Source: a virus
Lineage: Duplodnaviria; Caudoviricetes
IMG/VR virus record: IMGVR_UViG_3300046374_000002
Span: 1-60,208 of that record
Length of the DNA: 60,208 nucleotides
Direction: 5' to 3' (one strand)
This document shows positions 3,966 to 8,390 of the stretch, piece after piece. The notes beneath the pieces were generated by a model, which saw nothing but the letters and a program-made list of their open reading frames with translations, made no database searches and was not told where the DNA came from. Numbering within the stretch: the stretch's first letter is position 1; every line of letters begins with the position of its first letter. The position numbers were made by a program, and so were the translations under genes.

Positions 3966-4013
3966 AAAAAAAAAGATCCGCAGCCAGCAGCATGTTGCTG
4001 CTAGCTACGGACC
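3966..4013 (-). terminator. rho-independent terminator ending the early operon
   Basis: GGTCCGTAGCTAGCAGCA / TGCTGCTGGCTGCGGATC stem followed by T9. Confidence 0.85.
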
Positions 4014-4021
4014 CATTATGT

Positions 4022-4177: not shown

Positions 4178-4186
4178 TTGTTTTAG

Positions 4187-4384
4187 TTAGTTAAACCATC
4201 TAACATTATTCTTACTATCTCTTGTCCATTGCTTAGGATGCCATTGCCTACACTTCTTGACATAGTTATGGAATCCTACATCTCTAAATATTAGCCATTG
4301 CATTATCCGCGACTTAATAGACACAGTGTCTCTTATATAAGAGTGAAAGTTAGTACCACTTACCGGATAGACATTACTTTTCAT
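4187..4384 (-). CDS. hypothetical protein
   Basis: 65 aa ORF with AACTAACTAAAACGAA leader. Confidence 0.6.
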   Translation of the reverse strand: MKSNVYPVSGTNFHSYIRDTVSIKSRIMQWLIFRDVGFHNYVKKCRQWHPKQWTRDSKNNVRWFN

Positions 4385-4419
4385 TTCGTTTTAGTTAGTT
4401 TCAATTGACTATCATAGTC

Positions 4420-4478
4420 AACTGATTACTAGTAGGCTAGGAGGATTGAACTCCTAGCCAATTACCAGTGTATCAGTT
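4420..4478 (-). ncRNA. intergenic hairpin, class I (YUGAU-ANN-CURG...CYAG-YA-AUCAG) with UUCAAUC loop
   Basis: AACTGATACACTGGTA..GGCTAGGAG TTCAATC CTCCTAGCC TACTAGTAATCAGTT. Confidence 0.55.
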
Positions 4479-4487
4479 AGCTAAAGC

Positions 4488-5141
4488 TTAGGCTGCTTGC
4501 TTCAGAACTTGCAGCTTAGTAGCTTCAATTGCTTTCTTACCTTCCTGCTTTTGAGTGTAGGCTCGGAACCACTTGTTAGTGAAACTGTTAGTTTCGTCAA
4601 CCAACTGCTTTGCAGTCAGTTCATTGTTAGCAACTAGGTAATCTTCCGCTCTACCTTGCCATGCTGTAAGAACTTCTCTGACAAAGTTCTCAAAGCTATA
4701 GTTAATGCTTACTGCGGCAGGCTTACGATTACCATTCGGCCTAGCCTTACTCTCTTTCTTAGTATCCCGCAACTGCTTACCAGTTGGCTTGCTAGTCTTA
4801 CTCTGCTTCTTAGCAGCTTTCAACTTTTCCCTAGCTTCACCTTCTGTTTTAGGTAGTTCCTTTTCAGAAGCACCAGCTTCCTTCATAGACTTAACTACCT
4901 TGGCGGCATCCATTAATTGATAACCACGACCGCGGGTTATATTCCATTTCTCAGTACAATACGCTTCGAACGTATCATGTGTTCCACGATATAACTTATT
5001 GTCGCGAATTGTTATTAGTGCTTCACCAACTGCTAGAAAGGTTTTCAAGCCTTGCTTAATAGTTGCTTCACATTTGATTAACAATCCCTTTTCGTTAACA
5101 GTTAATTTTCCGACTACAGGTTTAACAGTAATGGTTTTCAT
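4488..5141 (-). CDS. conserved phage protein (DUF3102-like helical domain, basic C-terminal half)
   Basis: VGEALITIRDNKLYRGTHDTFEAYCTEKWNITRGRGYQLMDAA is a common phage motif. Confidence 0.7.
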   Translation of the reverse strand: MKTITVKPVVGKLTVNEKGLLIKCEATIKQGLKTFLAVGEALITIRDNKLYRGTHDTFEAYCTEKWNITRGRGYQLMDAAKVVKSMKEAGASEKELPKTEGEAREKLKAAKKQSKTSKPTGKQLRDTKKESKARPNGNRKPAAVSINYSFENFVREVLTAWQGRAEDYLVANNELTAKQLVDETNSFTNKWFRAYTQKQEGKKAIEATKLQVLKQAA

Positions 5142-5195
5142 AGTTAGTTAGTTAGCTATAGCATTATGCTATAGTCAGTAGGTTTTCAAGCTACT

Positions 5196-5230
5196 GAATC
5201 CTCTGCTAGCATTTAACTAGCAGAGACTTC
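5196..5230 (-). ncRNA. intergenic hairpin, class II (GAAGUCUCUG...CAGAGGAUUC)
   Basis: Outer 10+10 nt identical to the copy at 7551..7584; inner stem differs but still pairs. Confidence 0.55.
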
Positions 5231-5231
5231 A

Positions 5232-5579
5232 TTAGCTAAGAGATTGTATCTTCTCTTTGAGCACATTTATTTGTCCTAGCTTTGCCCTTGCTAGCTTCTT
5301 ATCCATTCCTAGTACGCCATTCTTAGTGGCAACACTCCGAAATACCCTAGCTTCCTTGTCTAAAGCTGACAGAAGCAAGCTAACATCGTCTTCAGATATG
5401 TCAGTTTGCGACCCATTGCTAGCACCATTGCTAACGTCCGCCAGTACTTCCACCTCTTCAACTGGTGCCCATACTAGCTTTTGAAACTTCGAATCATAGC
5501 TTCGAAGCATAGCTTTCACTCCCACTAGTCGATAGGTTTGGTCTTTGTATTTCGCCTTGATTTCGCCTTGTGTATTCAT
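5232..5579 (-). CDS. hypothetical protein
   Basis: 115 aa ORF with AACT leader. Confidence 0.7.
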   Translation of the reverse strand: MNTQGEIKAKYKDQTYRLVGVKAMLRSYDSKFQKLVWAPVEEVEVLADVSNGASNGSQTDISEDDVSLLLSALDKEARVFRSVATKNGVLGMDKKLARAKLGQINVLKEKIQSLS

Positions 5580-5618
5580 AGTTATTAGTTAGTTTGTTTC
5601 AAGTTAGCATTATTGCGA

Positions 5619-5672
5619 ACTGATTGCTGGCTATGAAATCATAACGTTATGATCCATAACCAGACTATCAGT
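5619..5672 (-). ncRNA. intergenic hairpin, class I, capped by the dispersed palindrome
   Basis: ACTGATAGTCTGG...CCAGCAATCAGT. Confidence 0.5.
5639..5652. repeat. dispersed palindrome, copy 3
   Basis: Exact 14-mer within atgaaaTCATAACGTTATGAt. Confidence 0.95.
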
Positions 5673-5678
5673 CAACTG

Positions 5679-5993
5679 TTAGTTCAAGCTGAGTCTAAGA
5701 TTGACTGTCACTTTAACAGCAGCAAAGATAGGTTGAACTACCTTTTCCCCTGTCTCTCTGTTCTCAGCATGAAAGCAATCATACACTAGAAATATAGTCG
5801 TGCAGTGTCCATCTACCTTTTCACTCAGTATAACCGGATCAAAGTTGATAGACGTTGCATCGACAAATGCGTCAAGAGCCAATTTCTTAGTATCTGGCTG
5901 CAATGACATAGATAGATAATCTTCCCACCTTTCGTTCCTAGCAATTACGATTCCATTTTCGAAAACTTCAGTACAGATTTGATATGTTTGCAT
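5679..5993 (-). CDS. hypothetical protein
   Basis: The track start (6020) falls inside the hammerhead CUGAUGA core; the ATG at 5993 follows the (AACT)3 leader. Confidence 0.65.
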   Translation of the reverse strand: MQTYQICTEVFENGIVIARNERWEDYLSMSLQPDTKKLALDAFVDATSINFDPVILSEKVDGHCTTIFLVYDCFHAENRETGEKVVQPIFAAVKVTVNLRLSLN

Positions 5994-6012
5994 TAGATAG
6001 TTAGTTAGTTTT

Positions 6013-6071
6013 TGAATCATCAGTTAGTGTCTTACACTAATATGCTAGGGTTTGAACCTAGCATTTCATCA
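6013..6071 (-). ncRNA. type II hammerhead ribozyme (downstream of ardC)
   Basis: TGAT-GAAA-TGCTAGG(TTCAAAC)CCTAGCA-TA-TTAGTGT(AAG)ACACTAA-CTGATGA-TTCA; full core; AUA cleavage triplet; stem II short with a U-U closing pair. Confidence 0.75.
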
Positions 6072-6947
6072 TTTGTCATCATCATCAAGCTTGCCTAAGA
6101 TATAGCTTGCAGCCTTTTCCGCACGACTAGCGCAAGTGACTACTGCTTTGGCATCACTAGCTAGGAATTGCTTCCAATGGCTAATGTAGCTTGCAGCATT
6201 CTTGATAGTAGGCTTGCTAATTCCAGCAACTTCGCAGAGAAATGCACTAGCAAACTCCGCAACTAGTTCTTCTCTAGAGTATTTCTCTTTCTCCATAGTA
6301 GTTCCTAGTTCCCTTGCTAATCTGGATTCATGTCCTGTACTATGTGCCAGCTCATGGAACAATGTTGAATAGTAAGCTTCCGAAGTCTTGAACTGCTTGA
6401 CTCCGTTTATACATACTTCATCCTTTGCAGGATAATAGTAAGCATAGGGTTTATTGCTAGGCTTAATTGCTGGCTTGTTAGGCATGTTCTTGACTATCAA
6501 GTTAGGTTTAACCATTTCTCGATTGCCATTATCCTTTTCCTCCAACCTAACATGTTCCAAGTTCTCACATTGTGTAACATTGAACACATTATAGTAACGT
6601 AGGATTGCCCTAGTAGTTTTTTCATTTGTAGCCTTGTCGATACTCTCAACTTTGCTCCAGAATGTGATCATACTAGCTTTTTCGCCTTTCCTAACATTAC
6701 CGCCAAGCTCTTTAGCTTGGTTGAATGTTAGGTAGTAAGGACTAGGGAATTTCTGCCACAGTAGCCAGCGATTAATTCCGCTGTACTCTCGATTGCTAAT
6801 CAAGTTTCTAGGCATAGCACCTTGTTCACCCTCTAAATAGGGTTGTTGCCAAGGGATAGTGCCATTATCTAACATCTCACAGATTCGATCTGTGATGATT
6901 TGGTAGACGTTTACTCGATCATTGCTATTTTGATTATATGTTGTCAT
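6069..6947 (-). CDS. ardC: ArdC-family antirestriction / ssDNA-binding protein with zincin-like domain
   Basis: PWQQP, YSGIN, YLTFNQA, VRKGEK, YNVFNVTQ, FHELAHSTGH..RL.R, YSREELVAE, ASYISHW motifs. Confidence 0.92.
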   Translation of the reverse strand: MTTYNQNSNDRVNVYQIITDRICEMLDNGTIPWQQPYLEGEQGAMPRNLISNREYSGINRWLLWQKFPSPYYLTFNQAKELGGNVRKGEKASMITFWSKVESIDKATNEKTTRAILRYYNVFNVTQCENLEHVRLEEKDNGNREMVKPNLIVKNMPNKPAIKPSNKPYAYYYPAKDEVCINGVKQFKTSEAYYSTLFHELAHSTGHESRLARELGTTMEKEKYSREELVAEFASAFLCEVAGISKPTIKNAASYISHWKQFLASDAKAVVTCASRAEKAASYILGKLDDDDK

Positions 6948-6977
6948 AGTTAGTTAGTTAGTTTGTTCTGATAAGTT

Positions 6978-7036
6978 AGGCTCATCAGTACTGCTATTAG
7001 CAGTAGATACTAGGGATAGAACCTAGTATTTCGCCT
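6978..7036 (-). ncRNA. type II hammerhead ribozyme (upstream of ardC)
   Basis: AGGC-GAAA-TACTAGG(TTCTATC)CCTAGTA-TC-TACTGC(TAATA)GCAGTA-CTGATGA-GCCT; all core nucleotides and three stems intact; AUC cleavage triplet. Confidence 0.92.
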
Positions 7037-7242
7037 TATGCTTTCAAGATGTCTGTTTCCATATTCATGGCATCGCGAATAGGCTCAAGCCTATTCATAA
7101 CATCTTTAACTTGTACAGTTGGATCATTCCAGAATTTGGAAGATTGTAGATAGGAAATAAGCTCAAGCATAGCAGCTTGCGCTTTCTCGTTATACTCTCT
7201 AGCTTCCAGTTTGATCTCTTGAAGTTTGGTAATATAGTTCAT
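7036..7242 (-). CDS. hypothetical protein
   Basis: 68 aa ORF with (AACT)n leader. Confidence 0.7.
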   Translation of the reverse strand: MNYITKLQEIKLEAREYNEKAQAAMLELISYLQSSKFWNDPTVQVKDVMNRLEPIRDAMNMETDILKA

Positions 7243-7274
7243 AGTTAGTTAGTTTCTTTTTCAGCATTTAGTAA

Positions 7275-7313
7275 GCTGATTACTAGCCTTTCGTAAAAGG
7301 CTAGGATATCAAC
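7275..7313 (-). ncRNA. intergenic hairpin, class I
   Basis: GTTGATATCCTAGCCTTT(TACG)AAAGGCTAGTAATCAGC. Confidence 0.55.
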
Positions 7314-7510
7314 TAGGAAGTATAACGAAGCTTTGCGGCATCATATACTTTCCACCAACCAGCATCTAGCCAGAAAGCTAATTCTTCCGAATCCATATCG
7401 GATAGGAAGTACATTATCAAGCCTAAGCTATAGGCTCTTTCAGCTTCCGTTGAGAAGCTTTTCTTTGTCCACGTTAGAAGATGGTTGTAAGAGAATTTAT
7501 CGAGTAGCAT
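7313..7510 (-). CDS. hypothetical protein
   Basis: 65 aa ORF with (AACT)n leader. Confidence 0.65.
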   Translation of the reverse strand: MLLDKFSYNHLLTWTKKSFSTEAERAYSLGLIMYFLSDMDSEELAFWLDAGWWKVYDAAKLRYTS

Positions 7511-7550
7511 ATAAGATAGTTAGTTAGTTAGTTTCTGTGAATCATTCACA

Positions 7551-7584
7551 GAATCCTCTGATCTATTGCTAGATCAGAGACTTC
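7551..7584 (-). ncRNA. intergenic hairpin, class II
   Basis: GAAGTCTCTGATCTA(GCAA)TAGATCAGAGGATTC; GNRA loop. Confidence 0.55.
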
Positions 7585-7606
7585 GATTAATGATCGATTG
7601 TTAGTG

Positions 7607-8011
7607 TTAGAGATTAGCTAATACTTTTGCTGCACTACCTCTAGACTCGATTAGCTTTCGAGCTTCGATTCGAAATTCGTTAAGATTCCGACCAGTACAG
7701 TTTTTAATATGTCTAACGATATCGCTAGACTTTACATTGTGGTTAACATAGCTTGCTACTGACTTCGCAAATTGTGTCACACTTCTATTTCCGCGTGAAC
7801 AATTGCACCTATGACAGCAGGTTACTAAGTTGCTAGTATCGTTGTTACCACCCTTTGATATAGGAGTGATATGGTCGATAGTTAGCTTCGCGCCATTTTC
7901 TGCGGAATCTCCGCAGTAGGCACATGATAAACCGTCTCGCAAGTAAATTGCTAGCCGCGTTGTCTGTCGCAACCAGTTCATACCTTGCCAGTTCTCTTGT
8001 CTTTTAGTCAT
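7607..8011 (-). CDS. HNH endonuclease
   Basis: RDGLSCAYCG...TIDHITPISKGG.N...NLVTCCHRCN. Confidence 0.9.
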   Translation of the reverse strand: MTKRQENWQGMNWLRQTTRLAIYLRDGLSCAYCGDSAENGAKLTIDHITPISKGGNNDTSNLVTCCHRCNCSRGNRSVTQFAKSVASYVNHNVKSSDIVRHIKNCTGRNLNEFRIEARKLIESRGSAAKVLANL

Positions 8012-8390
8012 AGTTAGTTAGTAGCGATTAGCTACTTAGAATAGACTTGCTTACCCTTGAATCTTCAATGCTTATAGCAATCGTCTGTAAAAAGATTCTT
8101 GATGGTCCGACTAGTCTACTCTAAGTAGCTAGCATCCTAAGATGCTAGCGACCAACTAAACTAAACTAAACTATTTTGTTAGGGGCGAGTAGAGCGCATC
8201 GTTTTTCTTTCGATTGTTGAACTGGCGGCGACTCACTTGCACAAGTGATGCCTATGATCGGTTGACGACCAGCAAACCTAAGATGTTACTTCGGTTCCCC
8301 TTGCAAGCTGTTGGTGAATATATCGACCCTCCTTGCCAGACCCTGATTTTTCCTTCCCTCAGGTTTGGGATTACTGATTTTTTACTACGC
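8012..8390 (-). ncRNA. long structured 5' leader / candidate ncRNA of the early operon
   Basis: About 380 nt with no plausible minus-strand ORF; 19-bp stem 8029..8047 / 8113..8131 plus further hairpins. Confidence 0.4.

What the first reader, a model, noticed from the sequence alone, without database searches (positions are those of the whole stretch)
4385..7606. Early operon organised as cassettes, each gap holding a conserved RNA structure and an (AACT)n leader
Seen: each of the seven consecutive gaps between 4385 and 7606 holds a structure right after the stop codon. Class I hairpins (YUGAU-ANN-CURG...CYAG-YA-AUCAG) lie at 4420, 5619 and 7275. Class II hairpins (GAAGUCUCUG...CAGAGGAUUC) lie at 5196 and 7551. 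The two hammerheads fill the remaining gaps. Outer sequence and internal loops are conserved, while inner stems vary but stay paired. Established: T7 early mRNA is cut at intergenic RNase III hairpins, and some RNA motifs (RAGATH) occur in the same gene contexts as hammerhead and twister ribozymes. Inference: class I and II hairpins occupy the same slot as the ribozymes, so they may be nuclease processing signals or uncharacterised RNA motifs. The repeats could also promote cassette exchange.
Basis: partly seen in the sequence, partly recalled or inferred. Interest (0 to 1): 0.72.

Follow-up and report, generated by a model that had tools for sequence, protein, structure and literature searches.

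The report
Phage early operon punctuated by RNA modules
In an uncultured soil phage, every gap between the genes of one early operon holds a hammerhead-type self-cutting RNA or one of two unnamed conserved hairpins, followed by the same G-free leader, and this probably serves to cut the long message into single-gene pieces.

Summary
On the minus strand, all seven gaps between 7606 and 4385 carry a structured element 0-22 nt after the stop codon and an (AACU)n tract before the AUG.

- **Hammerhead-like gaps (two).** HH1 (7036-6975) has a complete type II core but scores 25.3 bits against Rfam RF02276, below the cut-off of 37. HH2 has the core but a U.U mispair beside it, and gets no Rfam hit.
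- **Class I (three copies) and class II (two copies).** Neither matches any Rfam 15 family, and neither looks like a terminator.
- **A distant relative.** Metagenome contig L027 (primase 36% identical) has the same three module types in the syntenic operon: 2 hammerheads, 1 class I and 3 class II. They sit at different junctions, and the types are swapped on either side of an orthologous gene.
- **Covariation.** It is strong for the hammerheads (13 of 21 pairs changed on both sides) and for class II (6 of 13), and weak for class I (2 of 11). There are 12 G.U pairs and no A.C, which points to the transcribed strand.

Best reading: interchangeable RNA punctuation of a polycistronic early message. 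The hammerheads would cut themselves. Class I and II are most likely nuclease sites or end-protecting hairpins. Cleavage is untested.

Ribozyme-punctuated phage operons have been in print since 2011, and this scan has noted them before on other DNA. What is new is the two unnamed hairpin classes in the ribozyme slot.

The parts
7607..8011 (-). First gene of the operon: small HNH endonuclease (134 aa), preceded by an ACUAACUAACU leader (8019-8012)
   Evidence: Pfam HNH_5 E 3.7e-14; PHROG HNH endonuclease; leader
7551..7584 (-). Class II hairpin, copy a. Its lower stem AAGUC/GGAUU contains an R.A mismatch and a U.G pair. A plain hairpin follows at 7553-7533
   Evidence: Exact pattern match; model R1 51.1 bits; fold
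7518..7533 (-). (AACU)n leader before the 65-aa gene 7510-7313
7276..7312 (-). Class I hairpin, copy a. It has a lower stem, a 3x2 internal loop, and a 9-bp upper stem with a UACG loop
   Evidence: model R3 44 bits; fold
6975..7036 (-). HH1, a type II hammerhead-like element. GAAA at 7032-7029; stem III 7028-7008 with a T-loop-like loop; predicted cut between 7006 and 7005; stem I 7005-6989; CUGAUGA at 6988-6982; stem II 6981-6978 pairs with 7036-7033
   Evidence: Rfam RF02276 25.3 bits, E 0.0015, model positions 1-66 of 66, cut-off 37; model R2 88.4 bits; covariation
6968..6988 (-). Alternative 8-bp hairpin that pairs the HH1 core CUGAUGAG with a downstream stretch. It would hide the core, or cap the 5' end of the downstream product after the cut
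   Evidence: It is the minimum-energy fold of 7045-6948
6069..6947 (-). ArdC-N plus zincin anti-restriction-like gene (292 aa), flanked by HH1 and HH2
   Evidence: Pfam ArdcN E 3e-30 and MPTase-PolyVal E 2e-32; PHROG anti-restriction E 3e-69
6013..6071 (-). HH2, a hammerhead-like element. GAAA at 6067-6064; stem III 6063-6043; predicted cut between 6041 and 6040; stem I 6040-6024; CUGAUGA at 6023-6017; stem II is weak, with U.U next to the core
   Evidence: Model R2 90 bits (it was a training sequence); no Rfam hammerhead hit at E up to 10; stem I changed on both sides in a natural variant (read by hand)
5620..5671 (-). Class I hairpin, copy b. Its apex is the genome-wide palindrome at 5639-5652
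   Evidence: palindrome noted in e1-6270604
5196..5230 (-). Class II hairpin, copy b, followed by two plain hairpins (5197-5175 and 5174-5156)
4422..4476 (-). Class I hairpin, copy c. It has a second internal loop and a T-arm-like apex. A plain hairpin follows at 4425-4401
4385..4400 (-). Leader (ACUAACUAAAACGAA) before the 65-aa gene 4384-4187
3974..4014 (-). Canonical intrinsic terminator (19-bp stem plus a T run), the likely end of the early transcription unit

Best explanation
The roughly 4.4-kb leftward early transcription unit runs from a leader upstream of 8011 to the terminator at 4014-3974. It is a punctuated polycistronic mRNA.

After each stop codon comes one of three interchangeable RNA modules. 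Usually a plain hairpin follows, then a G-free (AACU)n leader that keeps the start codon unstructured.

Two modules are type II hammerhead-type ribozymes. They would cut themselves after position 17 (7006/7005 and 6041/6040). The upstream cistron would then end in a stable hairpin. The downstream cistron would begin with a hairpin and the leader.

Class I has a lower stem, a 3x2 internal loop and a CU..AG stem. Class II has an AAGUC/GGAUU stem with R.A and U.G. Both do the same job at the other junctions. Most likely they are sites for a protein endoribonuclease of the RNase III kind and/or caps that protect the ends.

Shown here: the structures, their conservation and covariation, their strand bias, and that the slots are interchangeable. 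Inferred: all cleavage, and what it does to stability and translation.
For: - **Slots filled.** 7 of 7 consecutive gaps hold a module plus leader.
- **Hammerhead core.** GAAA, U-H and CUGANGA are intact in 4 of 4 copies, 2 in the window and 2 in L027.
- **Independent copy.** L027 2636-2708 was not in the training set and scores 63.3 bits, E 5e-14.
- **Rfam.** RF02276 aligns end to end with HH1 at 25.3 bits, E 0.0015.
- **Hammerhead covariation.** 98.7% of cells are paired. 13 of 21 pairs changed on both sides. 0 of 500 shuffles reach this, and slid controls give 27-46% paired.
- **Class II covariation.** 93.7% paired, 6 of 13 pairs changed on both sides.
- **Strand bias.** 12 G.U pairs and no A.C in the three sets. 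Reverse-strand model scores are far lower.
- **Specificity.** A generic descriptor scan of 432 other loci (4.3 Mb, both strands) finds such hammerheads only in L027. It finds class II only in L027 plus 3 probable chance hits.
- **Interchangeable slots.** Around the orthologous gene (41% identity, E 1e-36) the window has class II upstream and class I downstream. L027 has the reverse.
- **Not terminators.** None of the seven is terminator-like, while real terminators with U runs exist nearby.
- **Precedent.** Clustered hammerheads flank single genes, including the anti-restriction gene ardA, in prophages, and they cleave in vitro and in vivo (PMC3088659, passages read).
Against: - No RNA data exist. 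All 14 listed holder runs are on record as DNA(?).
- HH1 is below the Rfam cut-off (25.3 against 37).
- HH2 gets no Rfam hammerhead hit and has U.U next to the core.
- L027 5103-5179 gets only an 18.6-bit type III hit, not a type II hit.
- The loop I to 3' tail pseudoknot typical of type II hammerheads is not seen consistently.
- The minimum-energy fold of HH1 hides the core in another hairpin.
- Class I covariation is weak: 2 of 11 pairs, and 59 of 500 shuffles do as well.
- Only two phage lineages carry the modules. Scans of viral and genome contigs found no others.
- Pfam finds no RNase among the 30 phage proteins scanned.
- Why three module types should be kept for one job is not explained.
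Confidence: 0.5

Rival explanations
1. Class I and II are not cut at all. They are passive hairpins, in the manner of REP elements. They block exonucleases and keep the folding of one cistron from disturbing the next. Only the hammerheads process the RNA.
For: They are stable hairpins (z -4.4 to -6.2) directly behind stop codons. Extra plain hairpins sit in the same gaps. No RNase was found in the phage.
Against: A passive block needs no conserved sequence. Yet the AAGUC/GGAUU stem with R.A and U.G is the same in 5 of 5 copies. The class I loop and its flanking pairs are kept in 4 of 4 copies across phages with 36% primase identity.
Confidence: 0.2
2. The repeats act on DNA. They are boundary sequences where recombination swaps gene cassettes, as the PeSL motifs of T4-type phages do, and the RNA structure is a by-product.
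For: The module type differs at orthologous junctions. Gene content between the conserved ends of the two operons differs. Variant contigs lose likeness near gene borders at 4193, 7614 and 7998. One short contig piece covers about 5995-6069, essentially HH2 plus its leader; I inferred that span from the from_end values.
Against: Identical stretches between copies are 10 bp or less, which is short for homologous exchange. The hammerhead core makes sense only in RNA. G.U without A.C (12 against 0) points to one strand. No promoter is part of the modules: 16 promoter-like sites against 13 expected in the region.
Confidence: 0.1
3. Class I and II are operators for a phage or host RNA-binding protein (translational repressor, antiterminator or chaperone) that sets the timing of each cistron.
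For: They have conserved internal-loop or mismatch motifs on a variable hairpin, which is how protein-binding RNA operators commonly look (from general knowledge). Many operon proteins have no known family.
Against: The elements sit 25-70 nt upstream of the AUG and do not overlap the start region. They share the slot with self-cleaving motifs, which a repressor site would not replace. No candidate protein was found.
Confidence: 0.1
4. Class I and/or class II are new small self-cleaving ribozymes, functionally equal to the hammerheads they alternate with.
For: They occupy the same slot as hammerheads in two phages and are swapped between junctions. Motifs found beside hammerhead and twister genes (RAGATH) have turned out to be ribozymes before (PMC11061315, passages read). 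There is no Rfam match.
Against: Very few unpaired conserved nucleotides exist: two in class I and one mismatch in class II. No second conserved loop or pseudoknot was seen. Known ribozymes have richer cores.
Confidence: 0.07

Closest known systems
Clustered hammerhead ribozymes that flank single genes in prophages and phages (Perreault et al. 2011, PMC3088659; Rfam RF02276 Hammerhead_II)
   Same: Hammerhead cores lie between genes of one phage operon. They are of type II, with stems I and III capped. They flank an anti-restriction gene, ArdC-like here and ardA in Agrobacterium. Stem II is short.
   Different: Scores fall below the Rfam cut-off. No loop I to tail pseudoknot was found. The stem III loop is T-loop-like in all four copies. 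Only 2 of 7 slots hold a hammerhead, and the others hold two unnamed hairpin classes.
RNase III processing hairpins between the early genes of phage T7 (and, as I recall, of Bacillus phage SP82)
   Same: These are irregular hairpins with an internal loop between the cistrons of an early polycistronic mRNA, repeated with a shared design. Cutting would leave a 3' hairpin on the upstream message.
   Different: No cleavage has been shown here. The helices are shorter, about 15-19 bp in three of the five copies. The conserved parts differ. The host and its RNase III are unknown. The comparison rests on my own knowledge of T7, not on a call.
[quoted passage not shown]
   Same: They are structured RNAs of unknown function found in the gene contexts of hammerheads.
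   Different: Neither class I nor class II matches any RAGATH or other family of Rfam 15 at E up to 10.
PeSL promoter/stem-loop cassettes of T4-type phages (PMC2839356 and PMC4122927; search listing and start of abstracts only)
   Same: They are repeated short motifs at the borders of small early genes in a variable region, and a possible role in shuffling genes.
   Different: PeSLs combine a terminator-like stem-loop with an early promoter. Here there is no promoter excess and the elements lie inside one transcription unit.
RiboJ-type synthetic insulators (hammerhead plus hairpin before the ribosome site; recalled, papers only listed)
   Same: The order is ribozyme, then hairpin, then an open ribosome-loading stretch ahead of each gene.
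   Different: RiboJ is an engineered part. Here the arrangement is natural, and the ribosome-loading stretch is an (AACU)n tract without a Shine-Dalgarno sequence.

Membership tests
Hammerhead ribozyme, type II (Rfam RF02276) | Catalytic core: CUGANGA, GAAA, the A15.1-U16.1 pair, and H (not G) at position 17 | tested here: met
   Present in 4 of 4 copies: window 7040-6968 and 6075-6003, L027 2636-2708 and 5103-5179
Hammerhead ribozyme, type II (Rfam RF02276) | Three helices around the core, each with a standard pair next to the core. Perreault et al. rejected candidates that broke this rule | tested here: inconclusive
   Met in 3 of 4 copies. HH2 has U.U at the stem II pair next to the core (pair 8-64: CG 3, other 1)
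Hammerhead ribozyme, type II (Rfam RF02276) | Type II permutation: stems I and III closed by loops, stem II open | tested here: met
Hammerhead ribozyme, type II (Rfam RF02276) | Score at or above Rfam's gathering cut-off (37 bits) | tested here: not met
   HH1 scores 25.3 bits. HH2 has no hammerhead hit. L027 5103-5179 has only a type III hit of 18.6 bits. The whole window gives 0 hits at gathering
Hammerhead ribozyme, type II (Rfam RF02276) | [quoted passage not shown] | tested here: inconclusive
   Only scattered 4-5 nt matches, not at a shared place. A loop-to-bulge contact cannot be judged with these tools
Hammerhead ribozyme, type II (Rfam RF02276) | Self-cleavage | not testable with these tools
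   No listed holder run is on record as RNA
RNase III processing site of the T7 early-mRNA kind | Irregular hairpin of about two helical turns, with an internal loop, between the cistrons of an early operon | tested here: inconclusive
   The position is met. Class I has a 7-8 bp lower stem, a 3x2 loop and 9 or more bp above it. Class II has 15-16 bp with two non-standard pairs. The lengths are at or below the recalled norm
RNase III processing site of the T7 early-mRNA kind | Cleavage by RNase III | not testable with these tools
   Needs an enzyme assay or end mapping
Intrinsic terminator | G+C-rich stem followed by a U run | tested here: not met
   None of the seven elements is listed. 4014-3974 is listed
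Any Rfam 15 family (RAGATH motifs, pistol, twister, hatchet and CRISPR repeats included) | Covariance-model match for class I or class II | tested here: not met
   Only chance-level microRNA or IS hits with E above 2. 0 hits in L027 2940-3565. Class II copy b and class I copy b were not searched as short stretches
PeSL cassettes of T4-type phages | Stem-loop joined to an early promoter | tested here: not met
   16 promoter-like sites against 13.0 +/- 3.3 in shuffles. Only weak 9-of-12 matches fall in two gaps

The most novel reading that the evidence does not exclude
Class I and/or class II is a new small self-cleaving RNA, or the dedicated target of a so far unknown processing nuclease. It is interchangeable with type II hammerheads in a natural system that insulates each gene of a phage operon.
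Probability: 0.1. Interest if true: 0.9.

Novelty: new variant of a known kind. Interest (0 to 1): 0.6.

Why it matters
Why phages put self-cleaving RNAs between genes has been an open question since 2011. In this operon the same slot is filled by a hammerhead or by one of two other conserved hairpins, and a distant relative has them at different junctions.

That gives a direct test. If all three module types produce the same RNA ends and the same expression, the function of the hammerheads is processing. Class I and II would then be either new ribozymes or nuclease sites.

The two hairpin classes are also fresh candidates for RNA-family curation. The module-hairpin-(AACU)n unit is a natural counterpart of engineered operon insulators.

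Tried and rejected
**Searches for relatives that found nothing useful**
- Single-protein scans of viral contigs with the ArdC-like protein and the primase found no relative.
- A primase-profile scan of viral contigs gave 28% identity at best.
- blastn and tblastn against GenBank phages found no match for the region, the DNA polymerase or the 217-aa protein. For the portal and primase they found only distant hits.
- DNA pattern scans gave chance matches only:
  - the exact class II pattern gave 1 chance hit in coding DNA;
  - the 19-nt leader gave 21 loci, mostly single microsatellites;
  - the hammerhead plus T-loop pattern in viral contigs gave 10 matches, none with stems;
  - class I plus leader gave 7 matches, none convincing;
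- The two closer primase relatives, L025 and L026, are 3-3.6 kb contigs with almost no upstream DNA. They hold no module.

**RNA evidence**
- No RNA holder is listed for the region.

**Readings considered and rejected**
- Simple terminators.
- CRISPR-repeat mimics. The inner stems differ in every copy and there is no CRISPR-DR hit.
- Half-hammerheads completed in trans, a lead from note e1-6200246. By eye, class I has A where G8 is needed and lacks GAAA, and class II lacks CUGANGA.
- Integron attC-like sites. This was by reasoning only; I did not look for an integrase.
- A phage-encoded RNase. Pfam on 30 proteins found none. PHROGs was run on only 10 of these.

**Limits of the literature check**
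- Supplementary files of papers were closed. Dataset S1 and the figures of PMC3088659 may hold type II variants like these.
- The original RAGATH paper is not in the library. Its motif list could only be checked through Rfam.
- My literature searches were by keyword and cannot show that class I and II are unpublished.

Full report
**What is there.** The window is a virus record of 60,208 bases, judged 91% complete. Nearly all its genes lie on the minus strand. The region of the finding is one leftward early operon:
- HNH endonuclease, 8011-7607
- two small genes, 7510-7313 and 7242-7036
- an ArdC-N/zincin anti-restriction-like gene, 6947-6069
- four more genes, 5993-5679, 5579-5232, 5141-4488 and 4384-4187

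A canonical terminator (19-bp stem plus a T run) lies at 4014-3974. The D5-type primase gene follows at 2891-1326. The start of the unit, upstream of a leader of about 380 nt, is taken by eye and from note e1-6270609. The promoter scan did not list it.

**The seven gaps.** Read on the minus strand, each gap has the same order: stop codon, structured module, usually a plain hairpin, an (AACU)n tract, then AUG.
- Class II: 7584-7551 and 5230-5196
- Class I: 7312-7276, 5671-5620 and 4476-4422
- Hammerhead-like: 7036-6975 (HH1) and 6071-6013 (HH2)

AACTAACT occurs 48 times against 4.75 expected, and 16 of these lie on the minus strand in 4185-8019. All ten spacers folded, seven from the window and three from L027, beat their shuffles (z -3.0 to -6.2).

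**The hammerhead-like elements.**
- HH1 has GAAA, an 8-bp stem III, U-C at the cut site, a 7-bp stem I, CUGAUGA, and a 4-bp stem II that includes the stop codon.
- Rfam at gathering thresholds finds nothing in the window. A 5-kb search at E up to 10 also missed HH1.
- A 121-nt search aligns RF02276 (type II) end to end at 25.3 bits, E 0.0015, below the cut-off of 37.
- HH2 has the same core and stems I and III. Its stem II starts with U.U, and Rfam gives no hammerhead hit.
- A model built from the two window copies and one L027 copy found a fourth copy, L027 2636-2708, at 63.3 bits, E 5e-14. This copy was not used in training.
- On the four copies, 98.7% of cells pair and 13 of 21 pairs changed on both sides. 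No shuffle of 500 reaches this, and slid controls give 27-46% paired.
- The minimum-energy folds of both L027 copies are exactly the three-way junction. The fold of HH1 prefers a hairpin that pairs CUGAUGAG with a downstream stretch.
- In one soil run, a variant contig piece spans about 5995-6069; I inferred that span from the from_end values. When I apply the listed changes by hand, it has three stem I pairs changed on both sides. It is a single contig at depth about 3.4.
- I found no consistent loop I to tail pseudoknot.
- The stem III loop is a 7-nt UUCNANN closed by G-C in all four copies. That is the T-loop pattern as I recall it.

**Class I and class II.**
- *Class II.* It keeps AAGUC/GGAUU(C), with an R.A mismatch and a U.G pair, in 5 of 5 copies. 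The inner 8-10 bp differ in every copy. 93.7% of cells are paired and 6 of 13 pairs changed on both sides.
- *Class I.* It keeps a lower stem (GAU/AUC invariant), a 3x2 internal loop (A-N-N opposite Y-A) and a CU.G/C.AG stem in 4 of 4 copies. The apex is free: a UACG loop, the genome-wide palindrome, or a T-arm-like hairpin. Covariation is weak: 2 of 11 pairs, and 59 of 500 shuffles reach the pair count.
- *Strand bias.* Over the three sets there are 12 G.U pairs and no A.C. Reverse-strand scores are much lower. Selection therefore acts on the transcribed strand.
- *Not known families.* Short-stretch Rfam searches give only chance-level hits.
- *Not terminators.* None is terminator-like.
- *Not elsewhere in the phage.* Outside the operon, the window has no sense-strand hit of any of the three models with E below 0.01.

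**The relative.**
I therefore aligned the primase with eight homologues and scanned the metagenome contigs.
- L027 is 10.7 kb and its primase is 36% identical. It is syntenic at both ends of the operon. Its 214-, 152-, 197- and 329-aa proteins and its primase match window proteins at 36-41% identity.
- Between those ends the gene content differs. Even so, the gaps hold 2 hammerheads, 1 class I and 3 class II elements. Each is followed by a leader ending in ACUAACU, here preceded by AAGGA.
- Around the clear orthologue (217 aa against 197 aa, 41% identity, E 1e-36), the window has class II upstream and class I downstream. L027 has class I upstream and class II downstream.
- The module type therefore does not go with a gene, and the three types can stand in for one another.
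- No other carrier was found in viral contigs, genome contigs or GenBank phages.
- A generic descriptor scan of 432 other loci (4.3 Mb) found hammerheads of this build only in L027.

**How it most likely works.**
- By their chemistry, hammerheads cut the RNA. Perreault et al. 2011 showed clustered hammerheads that flank single genes in prophages, among them three around ardA in Agrobacterium, and showed that they cleave in vitro and in vivo. They proposed processing of long phage transcripts into single-gene mRNAs (PMC3088659, passages read).
- Here the cut would leave the upstream cistron with the stem III hairpin at its 3' end. The downstream cistron would begin with stem I, for HH1 also the second hairpin, then a G-free leader that cannot fold back on the start codon.
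- Class I and II fill the same slot, so I infer that they give the same result by another route. The most likely route is an RNase III-type cut at an irregular hairpin, as in T7 early mRNA (my own knowledge). Less likely, they act as uncut protective hairpins.
- The window's leader has no Shine-Dalgarno sequence, while L027's has AAGGA. The shared ACUAACU may be a ribosome-loading tract. This is inference.
- Three different modules with different inner stems would also avoid long direct repeats inside one operon. This too is inference.

**Rivals.** These are passive hairpins, DNA-level cassette borders of the PeSL kind, protein operators, and new ribozymes. The fields above give the evidence for and against each.

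For the DNA-level reading, the data are only suggestive:
- Loose ends fall near 4193, 7614, 7998 and 5633, the last inside the palindrome of class I copy b.
- One joint skips 327 nt inside the HNH gene, with only 26 letters on its shorter side.

**Limits.**
- The modules are known from only two lineages.
- Class I rests on four copies.
- There is no RNA evidence of any kind.
- The host is unknown. The holder runs are labelled soil metagenomes.
- Paper supplements were closed.

This scan has noted ribozyme-punctuated early operons in other phages before. The arrangement as such is therefore not new. The two unnamed hairpin classes in the ribozyme slot are.

Noticed in passing
window 7021-7015, 6056-6050, about 4460-4440, 10435-10384; L027 2659-2665 and 5127-5133 (approximate): A 7-nt loop UUCNANN closed by G-C, the T-loop pattern of tRNA as I recall it, caps stem III of all four hammerhead-like elements. 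It also caps the apex of class I copy c and another intergenic hairpin. Stem III loops of hammerheads are not normally conserved.
   Followed up: partly
window 12040-11992 and 11645-11591; L027 313-377: A third hairpin type sits directly behind stop codons. It has a UUCCU/AGGNG lower stem and the same 3x2 loop plus CU..AG geometry as class I. The class I model does not score it at E up to 10.
   Followed up: partly
window 5639-5652: The genome-wide palindrome TCATAACGTTATGA forms the apex of class I copy b. In run X11 one contig leaves the window sequence exactly here and continues with the inverted copy of the 8490 region.
   Followed up: no
window 4193, 7614, 7787, 7998, 8172; joint 7645 to 7973: Variant contigs in run X12 lose likeness near gene borders. 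One joint skips 327 nt inside the HNH gene (short side 26 letters, weak). The 65-aa gene has a divergent allele at 4232-4346.
   Followed up: no
window 6988-6968: The HH1 core CUGAUGAG can pair with CUUAUCAG downstream (8 bp), and this is the minimum-energy fold. The same CUGAU/AUCAG words form the lower stem of class I.
   Followed up: partly
L027 2515-2640: A 41-aa, very hydrophobic ORF with the standard leader is the first cistron of the L027 operon. A hammerhead-like element follows it directly.
   Followed up: no
L027 2448-2488: A perfect 16-bp hairpin lies in the long leader ahead of the L027 operon. It is a weak hit of the class II model (16.3 bits). The window also has a long structured leader at 8390-8012, noted in e1-6270609.
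   Followed up: no
window 3917-3889: A promoter-like site (10 of 12 matches, with TG before the second hexamer) lies just after the operon terminator. It is the likely start of the unit that holds the 309-aa gene and the primase.
   Followed up: no
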